Below are positions 12,951-21,185 of a stretch of DNA of 28,549 nucleotides, piece after piece. Each line of letters opens with the position of its first letter. Position 1 is the stretch's first letter. Under the pieces are notes generated by a model. The model worked only from the letters and a program-made list of their open reading frames with translations. It ran no database searches and was not told the DNA's origin. A program made the translations under genes and the position numbers. The DNA comes from Escherichia coli. GTDB taxonomy: Bacteria; Pseudomonadota; Gammaproteobacteria; Enterobacterales; Enterobacteriaceae. The DNA is taken from the NCBI RefSeq assembly GCF_003334385.1, contig NZ_QOWN01000056.1. One strand, written 5' to 3'.

Positions 12951-14102
12951 TTACCAGGCGGTATGGTAAAGCTCTACAATATCCTCAAGCGTTGCTTCAC
13001 GCGGGTTGCCACCGGTACAAACATCATCCAGTGCCGCCTGCGCCAGTGCCGGAATGTCTTCCTTGCGTACACCAACATCACGCAAATGTGGCGGAATACC
13101 GACATCACGGTTGAGAGCAAACACCGCTTCAACAGCGGCATTACGCGCCTCTTCCAGGCTCATACCTTCCACTTTCACGCCCATAACGCGCGCGATATCG
13201 CGGTACTTCTCACCGGTAAAGTCAGCGTTATAACGCATGACATGCGGTAACAGGATGGCGTTCGCAACACCGTGTGGAGTGTTATAAAACGCGCCCAGTG
13301 GATGCGCCATACCATGCACCAACCCTAACCCAACATTCGAGAAGCCCATACCCGCAACATACTGCCCGAGCGCCATTTCTTCTCCGGCATCCTTATCACC
13401 AGCAACCGATCCTCGCAGCGCCCCAGCAATGATTTCAATCGCTTTAATGTGCAGTGCATCGGTTAGCGCCCACGCGCCACGGGTAATATACCCCTCAATA
13501 GCATGAGTGAGCGCATCGACACCCGTCGCAGCTTTCAGCGCTGGAGGCATACCATCCATCATGTCAGCGTCAATAAACGCCACCTGCGGGATATCATGCG
13601 GATCAACGCAAACAAACTTGCGCCGTTTCTCTTCGTCAGTGATCACGTAGTTAATGGTCACTTCTGCCGCAGTACCTGCTGTGGTAGGAATTGCCAGAAT
13701 CGGTACACTGGGTTTATTGGTCGGGGAAAGCCCTTCCAGGCTACGCACATCGGCAAACTCCGGGTTGTTGCTGATAATGCCAATCGCTTTACAAGTATCC
13801 TGTGGAGAACCACCACCAATAGCGATCAGGTAATCCGCGCCGCTATTCTGGAATACACCGAGCCCTTCTTTGACGACAGTAATTGTTGGGTTGGGCACTA
13901 CGCCGTCGTAAATCGCCCATGCCAGCCCTGCAGCATCCATCTTATCGGTCACTTTCGCCACCACGCCGCATTGCACCAGCGTTTTATCGGTGACGATCAG
14001 CGCCTTCTGATAACCACGGCGTTTCACCTCATCGGTTAAAGCCCCAACAGCACCCCGACCAAACCATGCCGTTTCGTTCAGAATCATTCTGTTAGCCATC
14101 AT
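12951..14102 (-). CDS. fucO: L-1,2-propanediol oxidoreductase (lactaldehyde reductase) FucO (383 aa)
   Basis: ORF MMANRMILNETAWFGRGAVGALTDEVKRRGYQKALIVTDKTL... (iron-containing alcohol dehydrogenase family); RBS aaggaga upstream; start could equally be the second ATG at 14099. Confidence 0.93.
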   Translation of the reverse strand: MMANRMILNETAWFGRGAVGALTDEVKRRGYQKALIVTDKTLVQCGVVAKVTDKMDAAGLAWAIYDGVVPNPTITVVKEGLGVFQNSGADYLIAIGGGSPQDTCKAIGIISNNPEFADVRSLEGLSPTNKPSVPILAIPTTAGTAAEVTINYVITDEEKRRKFVCVDPHDIPQVAFIDADMMDGMPPALKAATGVDALTHAIEGYITRGAWALTDALHIKAIEIIAGALRGSVAGDKDAGEEMALGQYVAGMGFSNVGLGLVHGMAHPLGAFYNTPHGVANAILLPHVMRYNADFTGEKYRDIARVMGVKVEGMSLEEARNAAVEAVFALNRDVGIPPHLRDVGVRKEDIPALAQAALDDVCTGGNPREATLEDIVELYHTAW

Positions 14103-14126: not shown

Positions 14127-14774
14127 TTACTCTTCAATTCGTAACCCATAGGTTTTGAATTTCTCCAGCACTACGGCAATCTCTTCATCGCTCAGCACTG
14201 GCACCGGGTCCGTAATCGCCAGGGTCGTCAGGTAAAGTTGCGCCAGCACTTCAACTTCATGCGCCAGCCATAACGCTTTTTCCAGATTCACCTCACAAGC
14301 GATAAGCCCATGATGTTGTAACAAAGTTGCCTTACGATTTTTGAGAGCCAGCGCAACATGTTCAGAAAGTTCGCGTGTTCCAAAGGTCGCATAAGGCGCG
14401 CAAGGAATAGAATTACCGCCAGCCGCCGCAATCATGTAGTGAATAGCGGGGATCGATCGGTTAAGAATGGAAACTGCCGTGCAATGAACGGCATGATTGT
14501 GAACAACCGCGTTGGCATCCGGTCTGCTTTGATAGGCTGCCATATGGAAACGCCATTCGCTTGAGGGGAGCTTTCCTTCCTCATGTTTACCGTTGCCATC
14601 AATAAAGACAATATGCGACTCCGTCAGTTTTTCATATGGAATGCCTGTAGGCGTAATCAGCATCCCATCCTGATAACGTACACTGACGTTCCCCGCTGTC
14701 CCCTGGTTCAGTCCCAGGCGGGTCATTTCCAGGCAAGTGTCAATAATCTGACGAGCAAGTTTATTTCGTTCCAT
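14127..14774 (-). CDS. fucA: L-fuculose-1-phosphate aldolase FucA (215 aa)
   Basis: ORF MERNKLARQIIDTCLEMTRLGLNQGTAGNVSVRYQDGMLITPTG... (class II aldolase). Confidence 0.93.
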   Translation of the reverse strand: MERNKLARQIIDTCLEMTRLGLNQGTAGNVSVRYQDGMLITPTGIPYEKLTESHIVFIDGNGKHEEGKLPSSEWRFHMAAYQSRPDANAVVHNHAVHCTAVSILNRSIPAIHYMIAAAGGNSIPCAPYATFGTRELSEHVALALKNRKATLLQHHGLIACEVNLEKALWLAHEVEVLAQLYLTTLAITDPVPVLSDEEIAVVLEKFKTYGLRIEE

Positions 14775-14963
14775 TAGCTACCTCTCTCTGATTCAAAACA
14801 GGGCAATAATGTTGTTCCTTTCACACTATTGAATTAGCCGTTTAATTACCCACCATCTTCTTCCTGATTAACAAGAAAGAAATTCACAAGCTTATATTTT
14901 GTGACCTGGTTCAACTAATCACAGTAAATAACTGCAAGTTCTCTTTTTATAACCCCATTAAAA

Positions 14964-15058
14964 ATGACCGCTCTTAAAAATATTTATCAAAACGGTCATT
15001 TTTCTATTCCTCCAAGCCCGGAATGACCGTTTTCGGCACAAACAATTAATACGGTCAT
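14964..15058. promoter_or_regulatory. Four evenly spaced ATGACCG(T) half-sites forming two inverted-repeat pairs in the fucAO/fucPIK divergent control region; candidate FucR (DeoR-family) operators
   Basis: atgaccg 14964..14970, cggtcat 14993..14999, atgaccgt 15023..15030, acggtcat 15051..15058; centre-to-centre spacing about 28-30 bp. Confidence 0.4.
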
Positions 15059-15116
15059 CTGATTTGTGTTTTTTATGATTTATTTTCTGAAACGGGCATG
15101 AAATTTCGATTATTAA

Positions 15117-15172
15117 AGTGATGGTAGTCACATAAAGTCACCTTCTAGCTAATAAGTGTGACCGCCGTCATA
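15117..15172. promoter_or_regulatory. Two CRP-like sites upstream of fucP (aGTGAtggtagTCACA at 15117..15132 and TGTGAccgccgTCAtA at 15157..15172)
   Basis: Matches to the TGTGA-N6-TCACA consensus; fuc promoters are catabolite-controlled. Confidence 0.45.
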
Positions 15173-15320
15173 TTACAGAGCGTTTTTTATTTGAAAATGA
15201 ATCCATGAGTTCATTTCAAACAGGCAAATATTCACTGATATGAAGCCCGAACTCGCTGGTTTTGCACTTTTGAAAACATAACCGATTACGTGCTTAAGCT
15301 TCTGAACCTAAGAGGATGCT

Positions 15321-16637
15321 ATGGGAAACACATCAATACAAACGCAGAGTTACCGTGCGGTAGATAAAGATGCAGGGCAAAGCAGAAGTTACATTATTCC
15401 ATTCGCGCTGCTGTGCTCACTGTTTTTTCTTTGGGCGGTAGCCAATAACCTTAACGACATTTTATTACCTCAATTCCAGCAGGCTTTTACGCTGACAAAT
15501 TTCCAGGCTGGCCTGATCCAATCGGCCTTTTACTTTGGTTATTTCATTATCCCAATCCCTGCTGGGATATTGATGAAAAAACTCAGTTATAAAGCAGGGA
15601 TTATTACCGGGTTATTTTTATATGCCTTGGGTGCTGCATTATTCTGGCCCGCCGCAGAAATAATGAACTACACCTTATTTTTAGTTGGCCTATTTATTAT
15701 TGCAGCCGGATTAGGTTGTCTGGAAACTGCCGCAAACCCTTTTGTTACGGTATTAGGGCCGGAAAGTAGTGGTCACTTCCGCTTAAATCTTGCGCAAACA
15801 TTTAACTCGTTTGGCGCAATTATCGCGGTTGTCTTTGGGCAAAGTCTTATTTTGTCTAACGTGCCACATCAATCGCAAGACGTTCTCGATAAAATGTCTC
15901 CAGAGCAATTGAGTGCGTATAAACACAGCCTGGTATTATCGGTACAGACACCTTATATGATCATCGTGGCTATCGTGTTACTGGTCGCCCTGCTGATCAT
16001 GCTGACGAAATTCCCGGCATTGCAGAGTGATAATCACAGTGACGCCAAACAAGGATCGTTCTCCGCATCGCTTTCTCGCCTGGCGCGTATTCGCCACTGG
16101 CGCTGGGCGGTATTAGCGCAATTCTGCTATGTCGGCGCACAAACGGCCTGCTGGAGCTATTTGATTCGCTACGCTGTAGAAGAAATTCCAGGTATGACTG
16201 CAGGCTTTGCCGCTAACTATTTAACCGGAACCATGGTGTGCTTCTTTATTGGTCGTTTCACCGGTACCTGGCTCATCAGTCGCTTCGCACCACACAAAGT
16301 CCTGGCCGCCTACGCATTAATCGCTATGGCACTGTGCCTGATCTCAGCCTTCGCTGGCGGTCATGTGGGCTTAATAGCCCTGACTTTATGCAGCGCCTTT
16401 ATGTCGATTCAGTACCCAACAATCTTCTCGCTGGGCATTAAGAATCTCGGCCAGGACACCAAATATGGTTCGTCCTTCATCGTTATGACCATTATTGGCG
16501 GCGGTATTGTCACTCCGGTCATGGGTTTTGTCAGTGACGCGGCGGGCAACATCCCCACTGCTGAACTGATCCCCGCACTCTGCTTCGCGGTCATCTTTAT
16601 CTTTGCCCGTTTCCGTTCTCAAACGGCAACTAACTGA
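15321..16637 (+). CDS. fucP: L-fucose:H+ symporter FucP (438 aa)
   Basis: ORF MGNTSIQTQSYRAVDKDAGQSRSYIIPFALLCSLFFLWAVANNLNDILLPQF... (MFS, 12-TM pattern); RBS agagga upstream. Confidence 0.93.
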   Translation: MGNTSIQTQSYRAVDKDAGQSRSYIIPFALLCSLFFLWAVANNLNDILLPQFQQAFTLTNFQAGLIQSAFYFGYFIIPIPAGILMKKLSYKAGIITGLFLYALGAALFWPAAEIMNYTLFLVGLFIIAAGLGCLETAANPFVTVLGPESSGHFRLNLAQTFNSFGAIIAVVFGQSLILSNVPHQSQDVLDKMSPEQLSAYKHSLVLSVQTPYMIIVAIVLLVALLIMLTKFPALQSDNHSDAKQGSFSASLSRLARIRHWRWAVLAQFCYVGAQTACWSYLIRYAVEEIPGMTAGFAANYLTGTMVCFFIGRFTGTWLISRFAPHKVLAAYALIAMALCLISAFAGGHVGLIALTLCSAFMSIQYPTIFSLGIKNLGQDTKYGSSFIVMTIIGGGIVTPVMGFVSDAAGNIPTAELIPALCFAVIFIFARFRSQTATN

Positions 16638-20396: not shown

Positions 20397-20453
20397 TCTC
20401 ATACCGGTACGCCCGCATGACGCGGGCGGTTATCGAATGATGGGGTGAAAAAT

Positions 20454-21185
20454 ATGAAAGCGGCACGCCAGCAAGCGATAGTCGACCTGCTGCTGAACCA
20501 TACCAGCCTGACCACGGAAGCTCTCTCTGAACAGCTAAAGGTCAGTAAAGAAACCATTCGTCGCGATCTCAATGAATTACAGACGCAGGGTAAAATTCTG
20601 CGCAATCATGGACGCGCTAAATATATCCACCGTCAAAATCAAGACAGTGGCGATCCCTTTCACATCAGGCTGAAAAGCCATTATGCGCATAAAGCAGATA
20701 TCGCGCGCGAGGCGCTCGCGTGGATTGAAGAAGGGATGGTGATAGCCTTAGACGCCAGTTCAACTTGCTGGTATCTGGCACGCCAGTTGCCTGACATCAA
20801 CATTCAGGTCTTCACCAATAGCCATCCGATTTGCCATGAACTCGGTAAACGCGAACGCATTCAACTGATCAGTTCCGGCGGCACACTTGAGCGCAAATAT
20901 GGCTGTTACGTCAATCCCTCGCTGATTTCCCAACTTAAATCGCTGGAAATCGATCTGTTTATTTTTTCTTGTGAAGGGATCGATAGCAGCGGCGCACTGT
21001 GGGACTCCAATGCGATCAACGCTGATTACAAATCGATGCTATTAAAACGTGCCGCGCAATCGTTGTTATTGATTGATAAAAGTAAATTTAATCGTTCAGG
21101 GGAAGCCCGCATCGGGCATCTGGATGAGGTAACGCACATTATTTCTGATGAGCGCCAGGTTGCAACTTCTTTGGTAACAGCCTGA
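20454..21185 (+). CDS. fucR: DeoR-family transcriptional activator of the fuc regulon, FucR (243 aa)
   Basis: ORF MKAARQQAIVDLLLNHTSLTTEALSEQLKVSKETIRRDLNELQTQGKILR... (N-terminal HTH plus DeoR C-terminal sugar-phosphate domain); the ORF track starts 3 codons earlier at gtg 20445. Confidence 0.9.
   Translation: MKAARQQAIVDLLLNHTSLTTEALSEQLKVSKETIRRDLNELQTQGKILRNHGRAKYIHRQNQDSGDPFHIRLKSHYAHKADIAREALAWIEEGMVIALDASSTCWYLARQLPDINIQVFTNSHPICHELGKRERIQLISSGGTLERKYGCYVNPSLISQLKSLEIDLFIFSCEGIDSSGALWDSNAINADYKSMLLKRAAQSLLLIDKSKFNRSGEARIGHLDEVTHIISDERQVATSLVTA

What the first reader, a model, noticed from the sequence alone, without database searches (positions are those of the whole stretch)
14964..15058. 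Periodic ATGACCG half-sites in the fuc divergent control region
Four copies of ATGACCG(T) alternate in orientation at about 29-bp intervals, making two large inverted repeats (atgaccg-N22-cggtcat and atgaccgt-N20-acggtcat), just upstream of two CRP-like sites and between the divergent fucAO and fucPIKUR operons. This architecture is what a DeoR-type oligomeric regulator such as FucR would be expected to bind; I do not recall a precisely defined FucR operator, so this is a concrete candidate.
Basis: seen in the sequence. Interest (0 to 1): 0.45.

Follow-up and report, generated by a model that had tools for sequence, protein, structure and literature searches.

The report
FucR operator boxes between fuc operons
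The repeated ATGACCG motifs are real and are the binding boxes of the fucose activator FucR, which were already defined by DAP-seq and promoter mutagenesis in 2021-2025. Comparing 36 enterobacterial loci adds only refinements: a fifth box and fixed 29-bp inverted pairs.

Summary
ATGACCG/CGGTCAT occurs at 14964-70(+), 14993-99(-), 15023-29(+) and 15052-58(-), with centres 29/30/29 bp apart, in the E. coli fucA-fucP intergenic region.

The core matches the published FucR DAP-seq motif (…CGG-K-CA-T…). Two of the four boxes (14963-77 = OFucR3, 15022-36 = OFucR2) were mutated in PfucAO reporters in 2024, with >50-fold and ~30% loss of fucose induction. A 2025 paper speaks of "four known" FucR sites.

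My comparison of 35 other FucR loci adds three things:
- There is a fifth conserved box at 15093-99 (CGGGCAT).
- The distances S1-S2 (29 bp), S3-S4 (29 bp) and S4-S5 (41 bp), and the distances to the flanking CRP sites, are almost invariant. S2-S3 varies from 19 to 30 bp and is hypervariable in sequence.
- A conserved TGTG…TTTT box lies exactly where an inverted partner of S5 would sit.

The region therefore reads as two rigid modules: CRP2-S1-S2 for fucAO, and S3-S4-box-S5-CRP1-CRP0 for fucPIKUR. I found no reported mutation of S2, S4 or S5, and S2 is the best-scoring box.

The finding is essentially already known, and the refinements are modest but testable.

The parts
14963..14977 (-). FucR box S1 (core CGGTCAT on the - strand, 14964-14970); this is the published OFucR3/OR3
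   Evidence: The sequence is identical to OFucR3 in PMC11011485, whose mutation gave >50-fold loss of fucose induction. PWM score 15.8 bits. Conserved in 35/36 regions.
14986..15000 (+). FucR box S2 (core CGGTCAT 14993-14999), the inverted partner of S1 at 29 bp; I found no report of it being mutated
   Evidence: It is the best PWM score in the window (20.3 bits) and fits every position of the published consensus. It is present in 36/36 regions, with S1-S2 = 29 bp in 30/35 and 30 bp in 5/35.
15000..15022 (.). Variable junction between the S1/S2 and S3/S4 units
   Evidence: The S2-S3 centre distance is 19-30 bp across genera. Polymorphisms within Escherichia concentrate here.
15022..15036 (-). 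FucR box S3 (core 15023-15029); this is the published OFucR2/OR2 and the site proposed from DAP-seq
   Evidence: The sequence is identical to OFucR2, whose mutation gave ~30% loss. PWM score 19.2 bits. Invariant TG.CCGTTT in 21 species.
15045..15059 (+). FucR box S4 (core 15052-15058), the inverted partner of S3 at 29 bp
   Evidence: PWM score 16.1 bits. S3-S4 = 29 bp in 35/36 regions. It lies outside the -270..-1 fragment that gives full PfucAO activity, so fucAO does not need it.
15064..15075 (.). Conserved box TTGTGTTTTTTA (yTGTGGkTTTTa in most genera), role unknown; it sits 29 bp from S5, where an inverted partner would be
   Evidence: GTG is nearly invariant and TTT invariant in alignment A2. 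The offsets S4+13 and S5-28 are fixed in 19/21 species. It lacks the CGG core, so it is not a canonical FucR box.
15086..15100 (+). FucR box S5 (core CGGGCAT 15093-15099), a direct repeat of S4 at 41 bp and the box nearest the fucP CRP sites
   Evidence: PWM score 13.0 bits in E. coli and 15-21 bits elsewhere, where the core is mostly CGGTCAT. It sits at -22 from the OCrp1 anchor in 34/36 regions.
14900..14915 (.). CRP site OCrp2 (TGTGACCTGGTTCAAC), about 70.5 bp upstream of the fucA transcription start at 14837
   Evidence: Mutational validation is reported in PMC11011485. TGTGA and TC are invariant. The offset to S1 is fixed at 63-64 bp.
15117..15132 (.). CRP site OCrp1 of the fucPIK promoter
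   Evidence: It is named in PMC11011485 and PMC11894529. The IS5 target CTAG (15145-48) lies between it and OCrp0, as those papers state. The offset from S5 is fixed at 25 bp.
15157..15172 (.). CRP site OCrp0 of the fucPIK promoter (probably a class II position; the fucP start is inferred to be near 15206)
   Evidence: The same literature applies. The spacing to OCrp1 (38-39 bp) and to the conserved GAAAAT (35-36 bp) is nearly invariant. The start site is my inference and was not read from a paper.

Best explanation
The motifs are the operator boxes of FucR, the DeoR-family, fuculose-1-phosphate-dependent activator encoded at 20454-21185 in the same window.

**The box.** Each box is an asymmetric element of about 12 bp, AAA-CGG-K-CA-TT, sized for one winged-helix domain.

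**Layout in E. coli.** The full array is S1(<) -29- S2(>) -30- S3(<) -29- S4(>) -41- S5(>), plus a conserved non-canonical box 29 bp before S5.

**How it most likely works (inferred).**
- The functional units are inverted pairs with a fixed 29-bp centre distance, each bound by two DNA-binding domains of a FucR oligomer.
- The array splits into two rigid modules separated by a length-variable junction.
- The S1/S2 module lies at a fixed distance from CRP site OCrp2 and activates fucAO.
- The S3/S4/box/S5 module is locked to OCrp1 and OCrp0 and activates fucPIKUR.
- In both cases FucR acts as a co-activator that helps CRP and RNA polymerase.

**What is shown and what is not.** Box identity and the role of S1 and S3 at PfucAO are shown in the literature. 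The conservation of five boxes and their spacings is shown here. Pairwise occupancy, the assignment of modules to promoters, and the activation mechanism are inferred.
For: **Sequence and statistics**
- The boxes, their orientation and their spacing are in the sequence.
- The cluster is unlikely by chance (5/5000 shuffles).

**Literature**
- The core matches the FucR DAP-seq consensus.
- S1 and S3 are the mutated OFucR3 and OFucR2 (>50-fold and ~30% loss of induction).
- The -270..-1 fragment has full PfucAO activity.
- Activation requires OCrp2.
- 'Four known' FucR sites are cited, all on the fucA side of the IS5 target.

**Comparative evidence**
- FucR carries HTH_DeoR and DeoRC domains.
- In 34 of the 36 canonical fucA-fucP intergenic regions analysed (the window, K-12 and 34 further loci), a PWM cutoff of 7 bits finds all five boxes between OCrp2 and OCrp1, and no others there, in the same order and orientation.
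- The pooled motif of 103 sites has C0, C4 and A5 invariant and G1 and G2 almost so (99 and 102 of 103), with K at position 3.
- Spacings are S1-S2 29 (30 in 5), S3-S4 29 (35/36), S4-S5 41 (42 in 4) and S5-OCrp1 fixed, whereas S2-S3 is 19-30.
- Within Escherichia the substitutions pile up in the S2-S3 junction.
- The degenerate position 3 does not co-vary between paired boxes (equal in 7/21 for S1/S2 and 12/21 for S3/S4, counted). This fits protein sites, not a hairpin.
Against: - I could not read any direct footprint or EMSA of FucR on these boxes. In-vitro binding rests on a DAP-seq result that I know only as quoted by PMC11011485; the original paper is not held.
- S3 contributes ~30% to PfucAO even without its partner S4 (the -270 fragment). 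A box can therefore act outside a 29-bp pair, and the modules are not fully independent.
- A spacing of 29 bp is about 2.75 helical turns, so paired boxes are not on the same DNA face. No solved DeoR-family-DNA complex exists to say whether that is plausible.
- A fucose biosensor study fitted a Hill coefficient of 1, which does not suggest strong cooperativity.
- Citrobacter loci with an ABC transporter in place of fucP keep FucR with the same recognition helix but show no CGGKCAT array upstream of fucI.
- The PWM was trained on 21 of the 36 regions, so the scan is partly circular.
Confidence: 0.85

Rival explanations
1. This is the published view taken literally. Each 15-bp box is an independent FucR site, orientation and spacing have no functional meaning, and the regular 29-bp pattern is historical (for example a duplicated 59-bp unit).
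For: - Single-box mutations give graded effects, and S3 works without S4 in the -270 fragment.
- A Hill coefficient of 1 was fitted for a fucose biosensor.
- E. coli shows a 59-bp direct repeat of the pair (families D4 and D6).
Against: Three intervals of 22-34 bp keep their length to within 1 bp in all but one of the canonical regions (Mangrovibacter, L044), across many enterobacterial genera, although their sequences diverge. The equally short S2-S3 interval changes length in most lineages. Orientation is also invariant. That contrast is not expected without a constraint on geometry.
Confidence: 0.25
2. The repeats are chance or neutral sequence, with no regulatory role.
For: A 7-mer is short, and 116 one-mismatch matches occur in the window.
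Against: - Only 5/5000 shuffles give such a cluster.
- The boxes are the most conserved non-CRP islands in a 21-species alignment whose mean column identity is 64%.
- Published mutagenesis shows function for two boxes.
Confidence: 0.01
3. The inverted repeats act as a nucleic-acid structure (a cruciform, or an RNA or DNA hairpin) rather than as protein sites.
For: The 151-nt stretch folds somewhat better than shuffles as single-stranded DNA (z = -2.0). Arms 14960-81 and 14982-15003 are 82% complementary.
Against: - There is no compensatory change. The variable core position differs between paired boxes in 14/21 (S1/S2) and 9/21 (S3/S4) species.
- The spacers are not complementary in other genera.
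- The region lies upstream of both transcription starts.
- There is no Rfam match.
Confidence: 0.02
4. The boxes are bound mainly by another factor (CRP, SrsR/YgfI or an unknown protein), and the FucR effect is indirect.
For: - I could not read any footprint with purified FucR.
- The CRP half-site in OCrp0 (GTGACCG) resembles a box.
- ABC-type Citrobacter loci keep FucR without the array.
Against: - The motif was derived from FucR DAP-seq, as quoted.
- Box mutations affect only fucose-induced activity, not basal CRP-dependent activity.
- The boxes lack the TGTGA-N6-TCACA form.
- The reported SrsR site lies in the fucP 5'UTR, and SrsR is reported not to regulate fucAO.
Confidence: 0.04

Closest known systems
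E. coli FucR operators OFucR2/OFucR3 (OR0-OR3): Zhang et al. 2024 (PMC11011485), Zhou et al. 2025 (PMC11894529), motif from Baumgart et al. 2021 DAP-seq
   Same: This is the same locus and the same sequences. S1 = OFucR3, S3 = OFucR2, the core is CGG-K-CA, and FucR acts together with CRP.
   Different: - The papers treat the boxes as separate 15-bp sites. The text I could read says nothing about inverted pairing, fixed spacing, phylogenetic conservation or a fifth box.
- The positions of the 'putative' OR0 and OR1 are given only in a figure that I cannot see, so at least one of S2, S4 and S5 is not among the four named sites.
Operators of other DeoR-family regulators (E. coli DeoR, GlpR, AgaR, UlaR; Lactococcus FruR). 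This entry is from my own knowledge and was not tested here.
   Same: The regulators are oligomeric, with an N-terminal winged helix and a DeoRC sugar-phosphate sensor. They use several repeated sites per control region, and non-palindromic repeats occur.
   Different: - The classical members are repressors with compact 16-20 bp palindromes or tandem repeats.
- FucR is an activator whose boxes form inverted pairs 29 bp apart.
- No DeoR-family-DNA structure is solved. The only PDB relative found is the DeoR C-terminal domain 7L6L.
Divergent CRP plus specific-activator control regions such as malEp-malKp (MalT boxes with CRP). This entry is from my own knowledge; PMC11011485 cites Richet 1991.
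   Same: Asymmetric activator boxes in both orientations lie between divergent, activator-dependent promoters that lack consensus -35/-10 elements (none found), together with several CRP sites at fixed distances.
   Different: The activator family is unrelated (MalT is a STAND/LuxR-type protein). No repositioning mechanism has been shown for FucR.

Membership tests
FucR operator boxes of the E. coli fuc regulon | Sequence fits the FucR DAP-seq consensus (RYSMRHW-CGG-K-CA-W-B) | tested here: met
   All five boxes carry CGG-K-CA. S2 fits every position, and S1 and S3 are the published sequences.
FucR operator boxes of the E. coli fuc regulon | Location in the fucAO/fucPIK intergenic region, on the fucA side of the IS5 target between OCrp0 and OCrp1 | tested here: met
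   The boxes lie at 14964-15099 and the IS5 target CTAG at 15145-48.
FucR operator boxes of the E. coli fuc regulon | Loss of fucose induction when the box is mutated | not testable with these tools
   The literature reports S1 >50-fold and S3 ~30% at PfucAO. I found no report of S2, S4 or S5 being mutated.
FucR operator boxes of the E. coli fuc regulon | Direct binding of purified FucR, dependent on fuculose-1-P | not testable with these tools
   Only DAP-seq is quoted. The original paper is not held, and I found no footprint or EMSA.
FucR operator boxes of the E. coli fuc regulon | Co-occurrence and conservation with FucR orthologues | tested here: met
   There are five boxes in 34/36 canonical fucA-fucP regions with FucR at 67-100% identity. 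The exception is that ABC-transporter-type Citrobacter loci keep FucR without the array.
DeoR-family regulator (the protein that binds) | HTH_DeoR N-terminal domain plus DeoRC sensor domain | tested here: met
   PF08220 has E = 1.3e-21 and PF00455 has E = 2.5e-45.
CRP binding site | TGTGA-N6-TCACA symmetry | tested here: not met
   The ATGACCG boxes lack it. The true CRP sites are separate, at 14900-15, 15117-32 and 15157-72.
Structured RNA or hairpin element | Compensatory changes that keep pairing, or an Rfam match | tested here: not met
   There is no covariation at the variable core position and no Rfam hit at E <= 1.

The most novel reading that the evidence does not exclude
FucR uses an operator geometry not described for the DeoR family: asymmetric boxes of about 12 bp read as inverted pairs at a rigid 29-bp centre distance (about 2.75 helical turns).
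- The divergent fuc control region would then be two independently evolving rigid modules: CRP2-S1-S2 for fucAO, and S3-S4-TGTG box-S5-CRP1-CRP0 for fucPIKUR.
- S2, which I found no report of being mutated, would be as essential for fucAO as S1.
- The published assignment of S3 (OFucR2) to fucAO would be secondary cross-talk.
Probability: 0.45. Interest if true: 0.4.

Novelty: already known. Interest (0 to 1): 0.2.

Why it matters
The fuc regulon is a classic system for fucose use in the gut, propanediol evolution and IS5 activation, and FucR is one of the few activators in the DeoR family. That these boxes are FucR sites is already published, so the finding does not open a new question.

The comparative result is still useful in a narrow way:
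- It identifies three conserved boxes (S2, S4, S5) and one conserved non-canonical box for which I found no reported mutation.
- It predicts which boxes serve which promoter.
- It gives a concrete spacing rule (29 bp) to guide footprinting, biosensor design and the first structural work on a DeoR-family-DNA complex.

Tried and rejected
- **Original DAP-seq paper (Baumgart 2021):** not held, so the motif is known to me only as quoted.
- **Podolny 1999 (fucPIK promoter):** not held. The fucP transcription start is therefore inferred from CRP geometry.
- **Positions of OR0 and OR1:** they are not in the text or supplements of PMC11894529.
- **Promoter and terminator scan:** no consensus promoter or terminator in the intergenic region. 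That fits activator dependence but is otherwise uninformative.
- **Rfam:** nothing found.
- **PDB:** no FucR relative by phmmer. A profile finds only the DeoR C-terminal domain 7L6L, so the 29-bp geometry cannot be checked against a structure.
- **Deeper phylogeny:** FucR relatives drop from 67% to 39% identity. The two 39% relatives I looked up lie on short contigs. Contigs L059 and L060, carrying one FucR-like gene next to fucI, have two same-strand CGGKCAT-like boxes 63 bp apart. This is suggestive only.
- **Apparent second box cluster upstream of fucR in Citrobacter:** it is a hairpin at the end of fucU, not an operator.
- **S2/S3 as the dimer site:** the perfect 12-bp S2/S3 inverted repeat of E. 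coli (I7) was considered and rejected because that spacing is the only variable one.

Full report
**Observation**

The window is an E. coli chromosome segment carrying fucO (12951-14102, -), fucA (14127-14774, -), fucP (15321-16637), fucI, fucK, fucU and fucR (20454-21185). The 546-bp fucA-fucP intergenic region differs from K-12 MG1655 by one base.

ATGACCG occurs exactly at 14964-70 (+), 14993-99 (-), 15023-29 (+) and 15052-58 (-). Orientation alternates and the centres are 29, 30 and 29 bp apart. The window holds 12 copies against 3.5 expected. In 5000 dinucleotide shuffles of the intergenic region, only 5 gave any 7-mer class (excluding 7-mers built from only two bases) at least 4 non-overlapping copies within 100 bp.

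**What is already published**

Zhang et al. 2024 (PMC11011485) quote the FucR motif from the DAP-seq study of Baumgart et al. 2021 as R-Y-S-M-R-H-W-CGG-K-CA-W-B. They name two sites:
- OFucR2, ccgaaaaCGGtCAtt, which is the reverse complement of window 15022-36 (my S3).
- OFucR3, ttaagagCGGtCAtt, which is the reverse complement of 14963-77 (my S1).

In a PfucAO(-270..-1)-lacZ reporter, mutating OFucR3 lowered fucose-induced activity more than 50-fold and mutating OFucR2 lowered it by about 30%. Neither mutation changed basal activity.

Their 5'RACE start for fucA (-63 from the ATG) maps to window 14837, and their -10 element to 14842-47. CRP site OCrp2 is essential for this promoter.

Zhou et al. 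[quoted passage not shown] They state that 'all four known binding sites' lie on the fucA side of the IS5 target CTAG, which is window 15145-48, between OCrp1 and OCrp0.

I found no direct footprint or EMSA, and the original DAP-seq paper is not held.

**Independent comparative test**

Using FucR as the query I fetched 52 enterobacterial loci with 60-98% identity. Thirty-four of them, plus K-12 and the window, give 36 regions with the canonical divergent fucA/fucP arrangement.

A 21-species alignment of the intergenic region has a mean column identity of 64%. Its conserved islands are the three CRP sites, the probable fucP -10 region and five FucR-type boxes, not four. The fifth box (S5, window 15093-99) reads CGGGCAT in E. 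coli and CGGTCAT in most other genera.

The pooled motif from 103 sites is wwAAA-CGG-K-CA-TTt. C0, C4 and A5 are invariant and G1 and G2 almost so (99 and 102 of 103), in agreement with the quoted DAP-seq consensus.

With a PWM cutoff of 7 bits, 34 of the 36 regions show all five boxes between OCrp2 and OCrp1, and no others there, in the same order and orientation. The PWM was trained on 21 of these regions, so this scan is partly circular. In the window, S2 is the best hit (20.3 bits), followed by S3 19.2, S4 16.1, S1 15.8 and S5 13.0.

**Geometry**

The distances between landmarks are strikingly rigid:

| Interval | Distance |
|---|---|
| fucA TSS to OCrp2 | 63 bp (60-63) |
| OCrp2 to S1 | 63-64 bp |
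| S1 to S2 | 29 bp (30 in 5 of 35) |
| S2 to S3 | 19-30 bp (mode 27) |
| S3 to S4 | 29 bp (35 of 36) |
| S4 to S5 | 41 bp (42 in 4) |
| S5 to OCrp1 | 25 bp |
| OCrp1 to OCrp0 | 38-39 bp |
| OCrp0 to the conserved GAAAAT | 35-36 bp |

S2-S3 is the only interval between the promoters whose length varies, and it is also the sequence-hypervariable spot within Escherichia.

It suggests two modules: OCrp2-S1-S2, and S3-S4-S5-OCrp1-OCrp0.

A further conserved box (E. coli TTGTGTTTTTT at 15064-74, yTGTGGkTTTT elsewhere) sits at a fixed offset, exactly 29 bp from S5. That is where an inverted partner of S5 would be, but it lacks the CGG core. Its role is unexplained.

The variable core position (T or G) does not co-vary between paired boxes: it is equal in 7/21 species for S1/S2 and 12/21 for S3/S4. 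There is also no Rfam match. The repeats therefore behave as protein sites and not as a hairpin, even though the stretch folds modestly better than shuffles.

**Mechanism**

Shown:
- FucR is an HTH_DeoR + DeoRC protein.
- S1 and S3 matter for fucose induction of PfucAO (literature).
- The five boxes and their spacing are under selection (this work).

Inferred:
- Each asymmetric box takes one winged-helix domain.
- A 29-bp inverted pair is occupied by two domains of one oligomer.
- S1/S2 serve fucAO from about -130 and -159.
- S3/S4/S5 serve fucPIKUR from roughly -180, -151 and -110, relative to a start that I infer near 15206.
- FucR acts by helping CRP and RNA polymerase, as the authors of the 2024 paper propose.

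Caveats:
- S3 contributes ~30% to PfucAO without S4 being present, so boxes can act singly and the modules talk to each other.
- 29 bp is not an integral number of helical turns.
- No DeoR-family-DNA structure exists for comparison.
- A biosensor study fitted a Hill coefficient of 1.
- ABC-transporter-type Citrobacter fuc loci keep FucR with the same recognition helix but have no such array.

**Comparison and novelty**

This is the same object as the published OFucR2/OFucR3 (OR0-OR3) sites. Relative to other DeoR-family operators (from my own knowledge) it shares multiplicity and oligomeric binding. It differs in serving an activator and in the long-spaced inverted pairs. Functionally it resembles other divergent CRP-plus-activator regions such as malEp-malKp.

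The finding itself is already known. The refinements are the fifth box, the spacing rule, the two-module layout, the fact that I found no reported test of S2, S4 or S5, and the TGTG box. They are incremental but directly testable.

I score interest at 0.2. The most novel reading not excluded is a new operator geometry for the DeoR family, with S2 essential for fucAO and a reassignment of S3 to the fucPIK side. I give it a probability of about 0.45 and an interest of about 0.4 if true.

Noticed in passing
window 15064-15075: A conserved box, TTGTGTTTTTTA (yTGTGGkTTTTa in most genera), lies between FucR boxes S4 and S5 at fixed offsets. It sits 29 bp from S5 but has no CGG core. Its function is unknown.
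   Followed up: partly
window 15000-15022: The junction between boxes S2 and S3 is hypervariable in length (S2-S3 centre distances of 19-30 bp across genera) and in sequence, even among E. coli strains. The S1-spacer-S2 stretch is nearly invariant in Escherichia. Every other Escherichia sequence aligned has ATGCCCG, not ATGACCG, at S3.
   Followed up: yes
L015:5771-6220, and the same region of L013, L014, L033, L034, L036-L039, L041, L049 and L053: Citrobacter fuc loci in which fucP is replaced by a divergent ribose-type ABC transporter operon keep fucR but lack the CGGKCAT array. Instead, the five regions I printed (L014, L015, L033, L039, L053) carry the perfect palindrome GCTAACTCGAGTTAGC twice, about 235 bp apart. 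This is probably the operator of another regulator.
   Followed up: partly
window 20410-20428; L015:9954-9982: The fucU-fucR spacer holds a GC-rich hairpin (cgcccgc-atgac-gcgggcg). Citrobacter has a different hairpin there whose arms mimic FucR boxes. It is probably an intercistronic RNA stem-loop.
   Followed up: partly
L016:8681-10711: Kosakonia sacchari has an orphan fucR (86% identical) next to iap, cysG and cysDN, with no other fuc genes within 10 kb. L030, L031 and L047 are similar.
   Followed up: partly
L051:10001-10240: In Citrobacter koseri NCTC10786, fucR is frameshifted after about residue 36, and fucA and fucP give truncated matches, yet the five-box array is intact. This is either a recent pseudogene or an assembly error.
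   Followed up: no
L040, L032, L052: Assemblies labelled Martelella alba, Serratia marcescens and Komagataeibacter melomenusus carry typical enterobacterial fuc DNA. The last is a 499-bp contig at low coverage. Mislabelling or contamination is likely.
   Followed up: no
window 14865-14889: PMC11011485 places the PfucAO -35 element 'TTGtgA' at -96..-91 from the fucA ATG. The sequence there reads TAATCA, and TTGTGA lies at -115..-110. The published coordinates or hexamer appear inconsistent.
   Followed up: partly
window 15158-15164: The promoter-proximal CRP site OCrp0 contains GTGACCG, one base off a FucR box. It scores 7-12 bits with the FucR matrix in several species. This is probably a coincidence between the TGTGA and TGACCG cores.
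   Followed up: no
L059:200-300; L060:100-200: Metagenome contigs with a 39%-identical FucR-like gene followed by fucI have two same-strand CGGKCAT-like boxes 63 bp apart upstream. This hints that the core motif outlasts the E. coli-type pair geometry.
   Followed up: partly
window 19717 and 27650: Isolated strong matches to the FucR matrix (16.5 and 16.0 bits) lie inside fucK and far downstream. Neither has a partner at 29 bp, so they are probably non-functional.
   Followed up: no
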